Below, one piece after another: positions 18,425-23,322 of a DNA stretch of 64,000 bases; position 1 is the stretch's first letter; every line of letters begins with the position of its first letter. Under the pieces are notes generated by a model. It was not told the origin of the DNA, did not search any database, and was given only the letters and a program-made list of their open reading frames with translations. The DNA comes from Candidatus Woesearchaeota archaeon (GTDB taxonomy: Archaea > Nanobdellota > Nanobdellia > Woesearchaeales > GW2011-AR9): positions 1 through 64,000 of the forward strand of contig JABHQW010000001.1 of the NCBI GenBank assembly GCA_018696595.1. Direction: 5' to 3'. A program made the position numbers and the translations under genes.

Positions 18425-18435
18425 CCTTTAGCGAG
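18425..18435 (-). promoter_or_regulatory. CTCGCTAAAGG motif, copy 1
   Basis: Followed by AATG and only an 8-codon ORF; imperfect inverted repeat 18441-18473 lies upstream; an opposite-strand CTCGCTAA is at 18539-18546. Confidence 0.6.
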
Positions 18436-18638
18436 GTTTTGTTAGGGGGAGGAACTTGTTTCTCCTTTCTAACTTTTTTCAACTGCAAAAGAAGTAACCA
18501 GTATTGCCACCCCTTCTACCCCATTAAAATATAGTTTACTCGCTAATGTTTTGAGGTAAGTAAAACTAAGATATAAACTTACTTACAGATATTTTTATCA
18601 AAACGCCGAATCCAACTGATTTGTAGCGGAAAAGTAAA

Positions 18639-19736
18639 TTAAACATTAAATCCAACAAACTTCTTCTCTTCTTTAACACGATCATATAAATCAATTACCG
18701 CAATTAAATCTTTATCACGAATCATCAGTTCCTCTTTACACATTGGCTTGCCCATTGCAGAAGATTGCATAAAATATTGGATTTGATTAAATGATGCTTG
18801 TTTCAGAACATTAGCAATGTCTGCACCAGTCATTCTACAAGCATACATCATTTCAGATAAACCTTCTGAATTAGTAAGTTGGTAAATTTCTCGGTTCGCT
18901 TTCTCTTCTTTCATTCTCATTTGTTTAACAAAGATATCTTCAACACCAGCTAAGTTGGGTTTAGGGATTTCAACAACATAATCAAATCTGCCTGCACGTA
19001 ACAAAGCGTCATCAATCTTTTCTAAGTAATTAGTAGCGGCAACAAAAATTAGTCCCTCATTGTTGCCCATCCCATCCATTGTTCTTAACCAAACGTTCAC
19101 ACATCTGTCCACAACTTCATGACCATTATGGCTGCCTTTCTTCCTAAACATTTGTTCTGCTTCATCAACAAACAACATTACCTTTCGTTCAGTTTGATGA
19201 TATTTCTTTCTAGCAGAGTTAATCGCAGCTTCCAGATTTTGTTCTGCCTCACCAACATACTTACTAATAATCAAACTCAAAGGCAATTCTAAAAACCAAC
19301 ATCCAAGTTCATTAGACATTGCTTTAGCAATCATAGTTTTCCCTGTTCCGGGAGGTCCGTACATTAACAACCCTTTCGGAGGATCAATCCCGTAGGAAGA
19401 GTAAGCGTAAGGGCAATCAATCCCATACTCAAAATGTTTGATCTTTTCTAAGACAGAATCTAAACCGCCAATATCAGAGTAAGAAGTTTCTTCTTGGCTT
19501 AAAGCGATTTTTAGTGAAGAAGGAGGATTAGATAATTGATGGATTTGTTTTTCATATTTCTCAATAATCTTTTTTTGTCCTTCAATAACTTGATCTTGGA
19601 CATATAATCTATCAGCAATACTTTTAACAAACTGTTCTGCTTCCTCTTCCGAAATCTCTTCATCTTCTTCTATGATTAAATCTTCTAGATCTTCTTCATC
19701 TTCGTTCTCTTCCTTCTTCTTTTTTGGATCAACCAT
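18639..19736 (-). CDS. AAA+ ATPase (CDC48/PAN-like, single AAA module) with acidic coiled-coil N-terminus
   Basis: Walker A GPPGTGKT, Walker B LFVDEAE, SRH AATN...DDALLRAGRFD. Confidence 0.9.
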   Translation of the reverse strand: MVDPKKKKEENEDEEDLEDLIIEEDEEISEEEAEQFVKSIADRLYVQDQVIEGQKKIIEKYEKQIHQLSNPPSSLKIALSQEETSYSDIGGLDSVLEKIKHFEYGIDCPYAYSSYGIDPPKGLLMYGPPGTGKTMIAKAMSNELGCWFLELPLSLIISKYVGEAEQNLEAAINSARKKYHQTERKVMLFVDEAEQMFRKKGSHNGHEVVDRCVNVWLRTMDGMGNNEGLIFVAATNYLEKIDDALLRAGRFDYVVEIPKPNLAGVEDIFVKQMRMKEEKANREIYQLTNSEGLSEMMYACRMTGADIANVLKQASFNQIQYFMQSSAMGKPMCKEELMIRDKDLIAVIDLYDRVKEEKKFVGFNV

Positions 19737-19745
19737 TTTCTAACT

Positions 19746-20063
19746 CTAATCTTTATGATAATGTATAGGTACAATTTTTTTCTCCTTACCAGAATAATAA
19801 AAAGTTCTAATTTCAGCACAATCTCCAAGTAATAAATGAGCACGCTCCATTTGACTGACAGCTTTATCATAACCATCATTAGATTTTACTTCATAAATAT
19901 CCCAACAGTCTCCATTAATCCCCACTAAATCTAACTCGCCAGCGTCGTTTCGAGAAGGAGGCATACGATAAACAACATTCTTCATTACAATTTGATACTG
20001 ATCTCTAACCAAAAGTTCAAGTTCGTCTAATGCTTGATCGTGTTTATTTTTTCCGTGGCTCAT
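19746..20063 (-). CDS. Small PD-(D/E)XK nuclease-fold protein
   Basis: GELDLVG...IYEVKS motif. Confidence 0.55.
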   Translation of the reverse strand: MSHGKNKHDQALDELELLVRDQYQIVMKNVVYRMPPSRNDAGELDLVGINGDCWDIYEVKSNDGYDKAVSQMERAHLLLGDCAEIRTFYYSGKEKKIVPIHYHKD

Positions 20064-20148
20064 TCTTCTTCACCGGTTTCTTTCTCTTTTCCTCTTCATA
20101 AGGAGGCAGGTGGTCGTACCATTGCAACCATTTTTTTCTTCGTCTCAT
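20044..20148 (-). CDS. Possible 34-aa basic peptide MRRRKKWLQWYDHLPPYEEEKRKKPVKKNEPRKK
   Basis: Manually translated; fills the gap between co-oriented ORFs. Confidence 0.35.
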   Translation of the reverse strand: MRRRKKWLQWYDHLPPYEEEKRKKPVKKNEPRKK

Positions 20149-20151
20149 TTT

Positions 20152-20361
20152 TTAATGATCATTCTCCAGATATTTTTTTGCTGAAAAGATGTACACCTTG
20201 CCATTAGGAAAATATTGACACCCTTTCTCCTCACTGAAAAGATAAGTTGTAAACTCATCATAACCAAAAGGAACATCCATTTCTCCCAGTTCAGTTTTTA
20301 CGGGAACGTTCAGGTAATGAAATTCTTCAACGACTTCTTGCAAAGATTTGTATTCAACCAT
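20152..20361 (-). CDS. Hypothetical protein
   Basis: 69 aa; start overlaps the upstream stop codon. Confidence 0.6.
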   Translation of the reverse strand: MVEYKSLQEVVEEFHYLNVPVKTELGEMDVPFGYDEFTTYLFSEEKGCQYFPNGKVYIFSAKKYLENDH

Positions 20362-20609
20362 TATTGATCACCACAAAAATAGATGTCGTGTTCTTTTGTG
20401 CGGACGTAAAAACACCCAAAGAGATCATTCAATTTTTCATCTGAACATCCACAATAGACCTTACGCCCTTCTTTCTTCTTAATTACCAAGTTGCATTGTT
20501 CAGAAATTTCAGGATAAGCAAGATCGCACAAATTCAAAGTTTTTTTCTCACTACAACCAACTAAGGATAATGCCAATGTAAGTCCAACAATTAATTTGTT
20601 CAGACTCAT
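20361..20609 (-). CDS. Small Cys-rich putative lipoprotein
   Basis: Signal peptide with LVGC lipobox; five further Cys. Confidence 0.6.
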   Translation of the reverse strand: MSLNKLIVGLTLALSLVGCSEKKTLNLCDLAYPEISEQCNLVIKKKEGRKVYCGCSDEKLNDLFGCFYVRTKEHDIYFCGDQ

Positions 20610-21705: not shown

Positions 21706-21740
21706 TTTAAATTGTCCTGCCATATTGACAAGACCATTCT

Positions 21741-22625
21741 TTACATTCTACATTCTTCAAAATGGTCATCAATATTCATTATCACATAATCAGTAATTTC
21801 ACAAATAATTTTTGAGTCCATAGCGATAGCTAGTCCTGAATTCTCCCGATGAAAAGGGCCACCAGCATTGTGAATTAAGTAAGCGCTGATGATTCCAGCC
21901 CAATACAATTGATCGTCTTTTTTAACAAAGAGAGCCCCACCAGAATTTCCAGGGTTAGCAGTGAGATCCAATATCTTTCTTGAAGAGTTTGGTACAGTAA
22001 TACCATTTACTTTATCTTCAAATTCATAATGAAACGGATAGTTACCCGGATTAGCGACTATACCTCCCGTAGTTGCAGGAAACATTCCTAAAGGATATCC
22101 GACCAGATAAACTTCTTCACCATACCTTAGATCTGAACTTAGTTGAAGATTATTCTCGGGAAGAAAGTTTAGTCTTTGATCCGTTCTTAGAATGGCTAAG
22201 TCCAATTCCTCAGATTCAAAAACAATTTCTAAAGGGATGTCATCATCTTTATTATTGTCAAACTTCGAATCAATAATTTTAATATCAACTTTAGTTCGAT
22301 CATATTTAGTTCCATTAACGTTCTGTTCAAAACCCCCAACAACATGTTGATTAGTAATTAAGTAAGAGTAACCATCAACGTCACGATAAGCAAAACTAGA
22401 ACCATATCCTCCGGCGTTGAATGTGTTTCCAGCCTGATCCTGATATTCTCTTTCTGAAAGTAAACAGTATGTGGAAGAGATTAAATCATCTAATGTAACT
22501 TCTTTTTCTGAGATTTCATGAGTGGCGCCATAGTTATTAATGGGAACATGTTGCATTGGCACACAAGCTGTTCCTGTTCCCACCAATAATGTTGCGGCTG
22601 CAATTAAGTTAACAAGTTTATTCAT
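21741..22625 (-). CDS. Trypsin-like serine protease, secreted/lipoprotein
   Basis: Catalytic triad TNQHVV, LDLAIL, PGNSGG; signal peptide ending TAC. Confidence 0.9.
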   Translation of the reverse strand: MNKLVNLIAAATLLVGTGTACVPMQHVPINNYGATHEISEKEVTLDDLISSTYCLLSEREYQDQAGNTFNAGGYGSSFAYRDVDGYSYLITNQHVVGGFEQNVNGTKYDRTKVDIKIIDSKFDNNKDDDIPLEIVFESEELDLAILRTDQRLNFLPENNLQLSSDLRYGEEVYLVGYPLGMFPATTGGIVANPGNYPFHYEFEDKVNGITVPNSSRKILDLTANPGNSGGALFVKKDDQLYWAGIISAYLIHNAGGPFHRENSGLAIAMDSKIICEITDYVIMNIDDHFEECRM

Positions 22626-22633
22626 TCATATCA

Positions 22634-22644
22634 CCTTTAGCGAG
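22634..22644 (-). promoter_or_regulatory. CTCGCTAAAGG motif, copy 4, fused to SD
   Basis: AAACTCGCTAAAGGTGATATGA-ATG. Confidence 0.75.
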
Positions 22645-22656
22645 TTTTTTTGATTC

Positions 22657-22765
22657 TCAAAAATGGAAATGGTTTGTATACGGGGCACGGCGGACATCGT
22701 ACTCCCTTAGAGTACCCGCCTCAGCAAGCTAGGGCCCCCGTATACAACTAACACCCATTTTTTGA
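22657..22765 (-). ncRNA. Structured intergenic element E1 (candidate ncRNA / cis-element)
   Basis: Nested helices AAAAATGG/CCATTTTT, TTGTATACGGGG/CCCCGTATACAA, GGCGG/CCGCC, GTACTC/GAGTAC; GC-rich in AT-rich DNA; strand inferred from similarity to E2. Confidence 0.6.
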
Positions 22766-22803
22766 TTTGATTTTAATGGTGGATTAACATCCAAACTTTA
22801 GTT

Positions 22804-23322
22804 TTAATCAGTTTCATTCTTATTCAGGATCCCCACCAGTCCACGGTATTGTGGATCATCGTTTTCTTTTTTTGAACGTAAAATGTTGGAGAGGGTGGAA
22901 GAATAACAAGCAGTAGCTAAACCGGCCATAACTGTGCCCATCTGATTATCACCAAGAAAATAATATCCTGCTGAAAGACAAGCCGCCAGTGTTCCGGCTA
23001 CTGGTTGAAACTTCTTGATAACTTCCACGGAATCTTGGTTAGAATATCTGTCACCCATAATTGCACTCATTCCGGAAACAGCTAAACCCAATCCCAAAAA
23101 AATGTTGTAGGGAAAAGTTTCACAGGCAGCTAAAGCAACTGTAAATCCCCCAGCAGCAGCAAGATCTGAATAGACTGCTAATCGTTCATACTTTCTATCT
23201 TGGACAGCTGTAATTTCTTCTAAGGAAACAAGCTCCTCTTTTTTATCTGGTTTTTCTTTCCACCCCAATTTCCAAATAGAACTTCCCCTTTTAGCGAGAT
23301 TTTGATGAGGAAGCACCCTCAT
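22804..23322 (-). CDS. Hypothetical membrane protein
   Basis: Two pairs of hydrophobic segments; start uncertain because the ATG lies within the hairpin at 23305-23322. Confidence 0.65.
   Translation of the reverse strand: MRVLPHQNLAKRGSSIWKLGWKEKPDKKEELVSLEEITAVQDRKYERLAVYSDLAAAGGFTVALAACETFPYNIFLGLGLAVSGMSAIMGDRYSNQDSVEVIKKFQPVAGTLAACLSAGYYFLGDNQMGTVMAGLATACYSSTLSNILRSKKENDDPQYRGLVGILNKNETD
23287..23298 (-). promoter_or_regulatory. CTCGCTAAAAGG motif, copy 5
   Basis: Preceded by perfect hairpin ATGAGG-N6-CCTCAT; lies inside the 5' end of the predicted ORF. Confidence 0.6.

What the first reader, a model, noticed from the sequence alone, without database searches (positions are those of the whole stretch)
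18425..23298. Hairpin + CTCGCTA(A/G)AGG motif heads successive small genes in a 5-kb block
Seen: five minus-strand copies (18425, 21434, 21695, 22634, 23287) and one opposite-strand copy (18539); none noticed elsewhere in the 64 kb, except a degenerate AACTCGTAGTGAGGT behind a hairpin at 25356-25370. Three copies run directly into the SD 4-10 nt before an ATG. Four of the five are preceded by an inverted repeat (18441-18473, 21712-21731, element E1, 23305-23322) and a short A-tract. The downstream genes are unrelated (phosphoesterase, Zn-ribbon, protease, membrane protein). Inference: a modular gene-head element, either a recombination site of a cassette-type gene-capture system (no integrase in this window) or a dedicated translational/RNA-processing signal for accessory genes.
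Basis: partly seen in the sequence, partly recalled or inferred. Interest (0 to 1): 0.72.

Follow-up and report, generated by a model that had tools for sequence, protein, structure and literature searches.

The report
Small antisense RNA and its operon targets
The repeated CTCGCTAAAGG motif is most likely the docking site of a previously unnoticed ~55-base regulatory RNA, encoded on the opposite strand inside the same gene cluster of a tiny marine archaeon (Woesearchaeota), which can pair with the ribosome-binding regions of four neighbouring genes; it is not a gene-cassette recombination site.

Summary
CTCGCTA(A/G)A(A/G)G occurs five times, all on the minus strand at 18425-23298, and nowhere else in the 1.19 Mb archaeal genome.

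The interpretation changes. The gene cluster (membrane protein, secreted protease, Zn-ribbon, phosphoesterase, small proteins, PD-(D/E)xK protein, AAA ATPase, 772-aa protein) keeps the same order in five genera. This rules out cassette shuffling.

Read on the plus strand, the copy at 18425-18473 looks like a small-RNA gene:
- a conserved archaeal BRE/TATA box lies exactly 23-24 nt upstream;
- then comes an 11-nt 5' seed, CCUUUAGCGAG;
- then a 33-nt hairpin whose G·U pairs form only on the plus strand;
- then a U-run.

The other four copies lie 3-19 nt before start codons and are complementary to the seed, including the AGG of the Shine-Dalgarno sequence.

In the family, the RNA gene and the close form of the operon occur in the same 8 of 113 genomes. 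A diverged operon without the RNA gene has no motif.

Best reading (confidence 0.6): a locally encoded anti-RBS sRNA that co-represses several cistrons of its own operon, most like Methanosarcina mazei sRNA41. No expression data could be obtained, so transcription and the regulatory effect are inferred.

The parts
18385..18401 (+). Predicted archaeal promoter of the sRNA: BRE-like CCACAAA followed by the TATA box TTTTAAATAT
   Evidence: A(A)ATTTAWATAT is invariant in all 9 copies from 8 genomes. It always lies 23-24 nt before the seed, and the spacer is not conserved. The purine-rich BRE is found only on the plus-strand upstream side. tRNA genes of the same genome have a TATA box 24-28 nt upstream.
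18424..18480 (+). Candidate sRNA of about 57 nt. The TSS is predicted at 18423-18425 and the 3' end is inferred.
   Evidence: Covariance model R1 finds it once per operon in 8 of 113 family genomes. RNAfold gives -17 kcal/mol on the plus strand against -10.4 for the reverse complement. No Rfam family matches.
18425..18435 (+).
   Evidence: Invariant in all 9 copies. It is perfectly complementary to CUCGCUAAAGG.
18441..18473 (+). 33-nt hairpin of the sRNA, terminator-like
   Evidence: 97.8% of cells are paired on the plus strand. 8 pairs vary on one side through G·U and 2 pairs change on both sides. 23 of 135 cells are G·U and would be A·C mismatches on the minus strand.
18474..18479 (+). U-run (T6) after the hairpin; likely termination signal
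   Evidence: T4-T6 in 5 of 9 copies and T-rich (TCTTTCTC and similar) in the rest. The 3' end is therefore uncertain.
23288..23298 (-). Target site B (CUCGCUAAAAG) in the operon leader, 19 nt before the membrane-protein start (TTG at 23268-23266)
   Evidence: Conserved in all the operon loci compared in which this junction is present. The upstream CAAAAU also pairs with the sRNA GUUUUG. Dimer ddG is -14.3 against -3.9±2.6 for shuffles.
22634..22644 (-). Target site C, 8 nt before the ATG of the secreted trypsin-like protease (21741-22625)
   Evidence: The motif is invariant while the upstream flank is unrelated between genomes. ddG is -15.0 against -2.9±2.3.
21695..21705 (-). Target site D, 3 nt before the ATG of the Zn-ribbon protein (21446-21691)
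   Evidence: Conserved in the close operon loci and, before a different small gene, in G061. ddG is -14.2 against -3.6±2.2.
21434..21444 (-). Target site E (CUCGCUAGAGG; the G pairs as G·U), 9 nt before the ATG of the Mre11-like phosphoesterase (20606-21424)
   Evidence: Present as (C/T/A)TCGCTAGAGG in G000, G002, G058, G069b and L319. It is lost in G001 and G069a. ddG is -9.5, which is weak.
15915..23268 (-). Target operon: membrane protein, protease, Zn-ribbon, phosphoesterase, p82, p69, PD-(D/E)xK-like p105, AAA ATPase, (p43), 772-aa protein
   Evidence: Pfam, PHROG, PADLOC and NCBIfam scans. Synteny by tblastn. Gene calls of metagenome contigs.

Best explanation
The copy at 18425-18473 is a small-RNA gene on the plus strand, antisense to the operon and lying between the AAA ATPase gene and the 772-aa gene.

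A BRE/TATA promoter at 18385-18401 would start transcription at about 18423-18425. The RNA would therefore begin with the seed (A)CCUUUAGCGAG, continue into a stable 33-nt hairpin and end at a U-run, about 55-60 nt in all.

The four other motif copies on the minus-strand operon mRNA are its binding sites. The seed pairs with CUCGCUAAAGG, and its following U-rich linker often pairs with the preceding A-tract. This gives 11-17 bp that cover the AGG of the Shine-Dalgarno sequence 3-19 nt before the start codons of the membrane protein, protease, Zn-ribbon and phosphoesterase genes.

Pairing would keep the 30S subunit off these sites, or expose the mRNA to decay, and so co-repress several cistrons of one polycistronic mRNA. 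Because the sRNA gene is convergent with read-through of the operon towards the 772-aa gene, operon transcription and sRNA transcription probably interfere with each other. That would give a tight on/off switch.

Shown computationally: the motif distribution, complementarity, promoter footprint, strand of the hairpin, and co-occurrence with the operon.

Inferred: that the RNA is made, where it ends, and that pairing represses rather than activates or directs processing.
For: 1. Specificity. The motif is confined to this operon in 1.19 Mb. Of 160 sites with up to 2 mismatches genome-wide, only 5 are intergenic and followed by an ORF start within 25 nt, and 3 of those are operon sites.

2. Promoter. 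AAATTTAWATAT with an upstream purine-rich BRE lies 23-24 nt before the seed in all 9 copies from 8 genomes. The spacer between them is unconserved. tRNA genes of the same genome have a TATA box 24-28 nt upstream.

3. Strand. The hairpin is 97.8% paired on the plus strand, with 23 of 135 cells G·U, which would be A·C on the minus strand. The plus-strand MFE is -14 to -20.7 kcal/mol against -7.6 to -13.2 for the reverse complement in all 9 copies. Single A-to-G changes in G000 and G058 keep pairing only on the plus strand.

4. Pairing. sRNA-target dimer ddG is -14 to -15 kcal/mol for sites B, C and D, against -3 to -4 (sd about 2.3) for shuffled targets.

5. Variation at targets. The core TCGCTA never varies. 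Variants at the edges are often wobble-compatible: A to G opposite U (CTCGCTAGAGG, CTCGCTAAGGG) and C to T opposite G (TTCGCTAAAGG).

6. Lineage-specific extension. In G054 the sRNA linker is GUUUGG, and two of its targets read CCAAAU-CUCGCUAAA and CUAAAC-CUCGCU, extending pairing to 15 bp or more.

7. Co-occurrence. The sRNA model hits 8 of 113 family genomes. These are the same 8 that hold the close form of the operon, and they carry 2-5 motif copies each against about 0.3 in the other genomes. G021 has a diverged operon and has neither the sRNA nor the motif.

8. Trans action. In G061 the sRNA and the 772-aa gene lie on a different contig from the target operon. In G054 the motif heads different cistrons: the phosphoesterase, p105 and the 772-aa-like gene.
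Against: There is no RNA evidence.

The seed never varies, so there is no seed-target covariation, and a protein that reads the motif would leave the same footprint at the targets.

The 9 sRNA copies come from only 4-5 independent lineages.

The U-run is weak in 4 of 9 copies.

RNAfold predicts that most of the seed sits in a small 5-bp hairpin when the RNA is free.

Duplex energies of some 2-mismatch sites inside coding regions are as good as those of the operon sites.

At site B the start codon is 19 nt away, so direct occlusion is less obvious there. Site B also has a conserved hairpin and a GGAAGUUCU box that the model does not explain.
Confidence: 0.6

Rival explanations
1. The motif is read on the operon mRNA (or DNA) by a protein, for example a translational operator or an endonucleolytic processing site used by an operon-encoded factor such as the Zn-ribbon protein or the PD-(D/E)xK protein. 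The plus-strand promoter and hairpin at 18385-18480 would make only a cis-antisense RNA against the 772-aa gene leader, which happens to begin at the fifth motif copy.
For: The core TCGCTA is invariant, it is strictly strand-specific and it lies close to start codons. The seed never varies, so RNA-RNA covariation cannot be shown. Site B has extra conserved flanks (a hairpin and GGAAGTTCT) that pairing does not require.
Against: This reading needs a coincidence: the predicted TSS of the antisense RNA falls exactly at the complement of the motif in all 9 copies. Wobble-compatible variants and lineage-specific extension of complementarity into the linker are what pairing predicts, not a protein site. 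No RNA-binding domain was found in the operon proteins.
Confidence: 0.2
2. The motif is a promoter for a phage-type single-subunit RNA polymerase, starting at the GG. From memory, the T3 promoter core is CTCACTAAAGG, a 10 of 11 match.
For: The resemblance to the T3/T7 promoter core is recalled, not tested. The motif sits at gene heads with A/T-rich sequence upstream. The ATPase and phosphoesterase give PHROG hits.
Against: No PF00940 polymerase was found in the 97%-complete genome. The controls did not ring either, so this is weak evidence. The 772-aa protein has no polymerase signature. The operon is chromosomal and syntenic across genera. In G054 the motif is fused to the start codon as CTCGCTAAAATG, which would leave a transcript starting at +1 with no start codon. 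The plus-strand features are left unexplained.
Confidence: 0.03
3. One reading: the hairpin plus motif is a recombination site that bounds mobile gene cassettes.
For: The motif repeats at gene boundaries and inverted repeats lie nearby. Some gene-content differences exist between relatives: p253 occurs only in G000, and p82 and p43 are variable.
Against: Gene order is identical across genera and the motif stays at the same junctions. The variable genes are not bounded by the motif. The hairpins differ between sites and are not conserved at sites C and D. The motif is absent from the rest of the genome. No recombinase is seen among the cluster genes scanned.
Confidence: 0.02
4. The copies are leftovers of local duplication of a leader sequence and have no present function.
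For: Sites A and B share architecture beyond the motif: motif, A/U-rich linker, hairpin and a homopolymer run.
Against: The 11-mer is invariant across genera, while the intergenic flanks and synonymous sites have diverged to 70-90% identity or been replaced.
Confidence: 0.05

Closest known systems
Methanosarcina mazei sRNA41 (Buddeweg et al. 2017, doi 10.1111/mmi.13900, as summarised in PMC5867862)
   Same: An archaeal intergenic sRNA proposed to repress translation by masking ribosome-binding sites of several cistrons within polycistronic mRNAs.
   Different: sRNA41 is experimentally supported, belongs to a methanogen and targets the ACDS operons encoded elsewhere. The RNA here is only predicted and belongs to DPANN/Woesearchaeota. 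It has no sequence relation to sRNA41 (no Rfam hit). It is encoded antisense inside its own target operon, and its regulon appears limited to that operon.
M. mazei sRNA154 anti-RBS loop acting on glnA2 (PMC5867862)
   Same: An anti-RBS sequence in an archaeal sRNA masks the RBS of an mRNA.
   Different: In sRNA154 the anti-RBS sits in a loop and that RNA also stabilises other mRNAs. Here the anti-RBS is at the predicted 5' end.
Bacterial 5'-seed sRNAs with a terminator hairpin (e.g. RybB, OmrA/B; own knowledge)
   Same: The architecture is the same: a conserved seed at the very 5' end, a Rho-independent-like hairpin plus U-run, and multiple targets sharing one short motif near the RBS.
   Different: The domain of life differs, the promoter is an archaeal BRE/TATA type, no Hfq dependence is known, and the targets are confined to the neighbouring operon.
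Integron attC sites / gene cassettes
   Same: Repeats at gene boundaries with imperfect inverted repeats.
   Different: There is no cassette shuffling, no conserved attC-type R''/L''-L'/R' architecture, and no integrase among the scanned genes. The motif lies upstream of genes and overlaps the Shine-Dalgarno sequence.

Membership tests
Trans-acting anti-RBS sRNA (archaeal, sRNA41/sRNA154 type) | Own promoter that gives a discrete small transcript | tested here: inconclusive
   A BRE/TATA footprint lies at a fixed 23-24 nt in 9 of 9 copies, followed by a hairpin and a U-rich tail. No RNA data could be obtained.
Trans-acting anti-RBS sRNA (archaeal, sRNA41/sRNA154 type) | Conserved single-stranded region complementary to the RBS region of its targets | tested here: met
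   11 of 11 complementarity at sites C and D, 10 of 11 at B and E, covering the AGG of the Shine-Dalgarno sequence. However, free-RNA folding puts part of the seed in a weak 5-bp hairpin.
Trans-acting anti-RBS sRNA (archaeal, sRNA41/sRNA154 type) | Non-coding: no ORF on the transcribed strand | tested here: met
   There is no plus-strand ORF of 40 aa or more at 18424-18480, and the 57-nt sequence holds no ATG.
Trans-acting anti-RBS sRNA (archaeal, sRNA41/sRNA154 type) | Changes translation or stability of the targets | not testable with these tools
   Needs reporter, toeprint or knock-down experiments.
Integron-type cassette array | Variable gene order or content delimited by the repeat | tested here: not met
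   The order is the same in G000, G001, G002, G057, G058, G069 and in metagenome contigs.
Integron-type cassette array | Conserved attC-like imperfect hairpin at every site | tested here: not met
   Hairpins differ between sites. At sites C and D they are absent or replaced in relatives.
T7/T3-type ssRNAP promoter | Cognate single-subunit RNA polymerase gene | tested here: not met
   No PF00940 match was found in the 97%-complete genome. No positive control rang in that search, so absence is not proven.
Extended Shine-Dalgarno / anti-SD pairing | Complementarity of the whole motif to the 16S 3' end | tested here: not met
   The 16S rRNA ends ...GGATCACCTCCT, so only AGG(TGAT) pairs. No CTCGCTA or its complement lies within the 16S gene.
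Any Rfam family | Match at or above the gathering score | tested here: not met
   0 matches in the 64-kb window.

The most novel reading that the evidence does not exclude
The RNA is more than a translational repressor. It could act as a guide that, with operon-encoded enzymes (the PD-(D/E)xK protein, Mre11-like phosphoesterase and AAA ATPase), directs cleavage of the polycistronic mRNA at each motif. Alternatively, the regulon may grow by duplication of the sRNA gene itself: site B, read on the plus strand, has the full architecture of seed, linker, hairpin and U8 but no promoter. That would be a mechanism by which new target sites are born ready-made.
Probability: 0.1. Interest if true: 0.75.

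Novelty: new member of a known kind. Interest (0 to 1): 0.5.

Why it matters
I found no description of a regulatory sRNA with defined targets in DPANN archaea. Two literature searches returned none for DPANN or Woesearchaeota. These organisms are uncultivated and have very small genomes.

This locus offers a compact case defined from sequence alone: one ~57-nt RNA, an 11-nt seed and 3-5 sites at cistron heads of one operon. It can be tested with metatranscriptomes and heterologous reporters.

It also shows that a repeated "gene-head" motif can be the footprint of an antisense-encoded sRNA. Looking for such footprints is a useful way to find sRNAs in genomes that lack RNA data.

The regulated operon (secreted protease, membrane protein, nuclease-like proteins, AAA ATPase) has unknown function. 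Its apparently tight control suggests that its products are costly or harmful.

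Tried and rejected
1. T3/T7-like promoter. The resemblance CTCACTAAAGG is recalled from memory. No ssRNAP was found and the plus-strand features would remain unexplained, so I rejected it.

2. 16S anti-SD pairing of the whole motif. Rejected: the 16S 3' end is GGATCACCTCCT.

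3. Cassette shuffling. Rejected on synteny.

4. Site B as a second sRNA gene. No plus-strand TATA lies at the right distance in any genome, so I treat it as a target.

5. Scans of metagenome contigs and genome contigs with the 14-base pattern CCTTTAGCGAGGTNT.

6. The exact sRNA pattern in 400 other genomes of the order: none found.

I replaced it with a Hamming pre-filter. Duplex energy alone does not separate the operon sites from some 2-mismatch sites inside coding regions.

9. Function of the operon. Pfam, PHROG, PADLOC, NCBIfam, PDB sequence and Atlas searches gave only generic hits: AAA (CDC48/PAN/IetA-like), Trypsin_2, PHROG 'DNA repair exonuclease', and a Methyltransf_33-like lead for the C-terminus of the 772-aa protein. 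No system could be named.

10. The hairpin-loop model in which the motif sits in a conserved loop on the mRNA. It fits some B sites but not C or D, so I dropped it.

11. Earlier scan notes searched by sequence and by words: nothing.

Full report
**Organism and setting**

The window is contig 4 of a 1.19 Mb, 8-contig genome that is 97% complete and about 32% G+C. Its SSU rRNA scores as archaeal: 1407 bits against 1052 for the bacterial model. The window encodes aCPSF1/FttA. A contig identical to one relative is deposited as Candidatus Woesearchaeota, and earlier scan notes call the genome a marine Woesearchaeote.

**The observation**

CTCGCTARAGG occurs on the minus strand at 18425, 21434, 21695 and 22634, with a one-mismatch copy at 23288-23298. 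That is 6 hits at up to 1 mismatch against 0.71 expected, and no shuffle reached 6. In the whole genome, CTCGCTA[AG]A[AG]G is found only at these five places.

Three copies run into the Shine-Dalgarno sequence 3-9 nt before the ATGs of a phosphoesterase, a Zn-ribbon protein and a trypsin-like protease. The fifth lies 19 nt before the conserved start of a membrane protein.

The 16S rRNA ends GGAUCACCUCCU. Only the AGG(UGAU) part of the motif can be ordinary SD pairing, so CTCGCTA needs another explanation.

**Not cassettes**

The cluster runs membrane protein, protease, Zn-ribbon, phosphoesterase, (p82), p69, p105, AAA ATPase, (p43), 772-aa protein. It is followed by a convergent tandem AsnC-type regulator and argS.

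This cluster is collinear in two same-genus genomes, in genera g48 and g54 and in three metagenome contigs. More diverged versions occur in G061, G069 (a second copy) and G054. The motif sits at the same junctions in the collinear loci and is invariant. Its flanks, by contrast, are diverged or replaced. For example, the GC-rich element E1 before the protease gene is absent from G001 and G069.

The gene-content differences (p253 only in G000; p82 and p43 variable) are not bounded by the motif.

**The key re-reading**

The copy at 18425 is not followed by a conserved start codon in relatives. Read on the plus strand, the region is:
- BRE-like CCACAAA plus TATA TTTTAAATAT (18385-18401);
- a 23-24 nt unconserved spacer;
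- CCTTTAGCGAG (18425-18435);
- GTTTT;
- a 33-nt hairpin (18441-18473);
- TTTTTT.

All nine copies from eight genomes keep the TATA element, the spacing, the seed and the hairpin. tRNA genes of this genome have TATA boxes 24-28 nt upstream, so transcription would start within a base or two of the seed.

The hairpin belongs to the plus strand:
- 97.8% of cells pair, eight pairs vary on one side via G·U and two pairs change on both sides.
- 23 of 135 cells are G·U, which would be A·C on the minus strand.
- The plus-strand MFE beats the reverse complement in all nine copies.

No plus-strand ORF and no Rfam family cover the region.

**Targets**

The seed is perfectly complementary to the motif at the protease and Zn-ribbon heads. 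It is 10 of 11 complementary at the phosphoesterase head (the A-to-G change gives G·U) and at the operon leader.

Predicted dimer ddG is -14.3, -15.0, -14.2 and -9.5 kcal/mol, against -3 to -5 for shuffled targets.

Across genomes the core TCGCTA never changes. The edge variants include wobble-compatible TTCGCTAAAGG, CTCGCTAGAGG and CTCGCTAAGGG, and a few disruptive ones.

In G054 the motif heads other cistrons: the phosphoesterase and p105 as CTCGCTAAAATG, and the 772-aa-like gene. Two of its sites extend complementarity into that lineage's own linker, GUUUGG.

In G061 the sRNA and the 772-aa gene are on a different contig from the target operon. This fits action in trans.

**Co-occurrence**

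The covariance model finds the RNA gene in 8 of 113 family genomes. These are the same eight that carry the close form of the operon. They hold 2-5 motif copies each, against about 0.3 in the others, which is the level of the reversed-pattern control.

G021 has a diverged operon (59% identical phosphoesterase) and has neither the RNA gene nor the motif. The exact RNA pattern was not found in 400 further genomes of the order.

These genomes are kin and represent perhaps four or five independent lineages, so no formal statistic is claimed.

**Mechanism proposed**

I propose a ~57-nt sRNA whose 5' seed masks the ribosome-binding regions of three to five cistrons of its neighbouring operon and so co-represses them. 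Convergent transcription between the operon read-through and the sRNA gene could add mutual interference. The complementarity, promoter footprint, strand and co-occurrence are shown. Expression, the RNA's ends and the direction of the effect are inferred. No read data could be obtained.

**Comparison with known systems**

The nearest described case is M. mazei sRNA41. [quoted passage not shown] The present RNA is unrelated in sequence and occurs in a DPANN lineage. It is encoded antisense within its own target operon. I rate it a new member of a known kind.

**Rivals**

- A protein-read operator or processing site, with the antisense RNA acting only in cis (0.2).
- A non-functional duplicated leader (0.05).
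- A T7-like promoter (0.03; no polymerase found).
- Cassette recombination sites (0.02).

**Open points**

- The conserved hairpin, A-run and GGAAGTTCT box around site B.
- The weak U-run in some copies.
- The small hairpin predicted within the free seed.
- The function of the operon, for which only generic domain hits were obtained.

Noticed in passing
window 23266-23335 (minus strand): Site B is embedded in a roughly 50-nt block conserved across genera: A-run, hairpin GAGGnnnCTTCCTC, CAAAAT, motif, GGAAGTTCT. On the plus strand it mimics the sRNA architecture (seed, AUUUUGA, hairpin, U8) but has no TATA at the right distance. It may be a decayed duplicate of the sRNA gene or a structured leader.
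   Followed up: partly
L313:6287-6298 and L314:5016-5027 (G054): In genus g46 the motif is fused directly to the start codon (CTCGCTAAAATG) at the phosphoesterase and p105 genes. A further copy precedes the 772-aa-like gene. The set of cistrons carrying the site therefore differs between lineages.
   Followed up: partly
window 23509-24270 (minus strand): The 253-aa ORF just upstream of the operon leader has no counterpart in any of the related operon loci compared (tblastn) and no family hit. It looks like a strain-specific insertion.
   Followed up: no
L047 (G069:C32) and L053 (G069:C35): One MAG holds two versions of the operon plus sRNA. One is about 88% identical in protein to the window and the other about 55%. 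This is either a true paralogous pair or a mixed bin.
   Followed up: no
window 18481-18530: A block of about 45 nt between the sRNA 3' end and the AAA stop (plus strand ACTGCAAAAGAAGTAACCAGTATTGCCACCCCTTCTACCCC) is conserved in G001 and G069 but replaced by other sequence in G002 and G057. Its role is unknown. It could be part of a longer sRNA isoform or the promoter or leader of the 772-aa gene.
   Followed up: no
window 21706-21740; L011 about 9760-9815: Before the Zn-ribbon gene, relatives have a 10-bp inverted repeat (GTCCTGCCGT...ACGGCAGGAC) whose loop carries a second partial motif, GCTAAAGG.
   Followed up: partly
window 15915-18233 (minus strand): The 772-aa protein always lies next to the sRNA gene. 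It has no Pfam hit. The protein-atlas search gives a weak lead (0.88) to Methyltransf_33 (EgtD-like SAM methyltransferase) for its C-terminal part. Homologues found by word search are limited to 9 close relatives.
   Followed up: partly
window 18639-19736 and 21741-22625 (minus strand): In PADLOC the AAA ATPase hits IetA models and the trypsin-like protease hits LmuA and RT-protease models, both well below family level. The operon might be a defence-like or otherwise harmful module, which would fit tight RNA control.
   Followed up: no
window 18257-18388 (minus strand): The small ORF p43 between the sRNA promoter and the 772-aa gene is weakly conserved in G002, G057 and G058. It is deleted, together with about 170 nt, in G001 and G069. 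It is unclear whether it is a gene.
   Followed up: no
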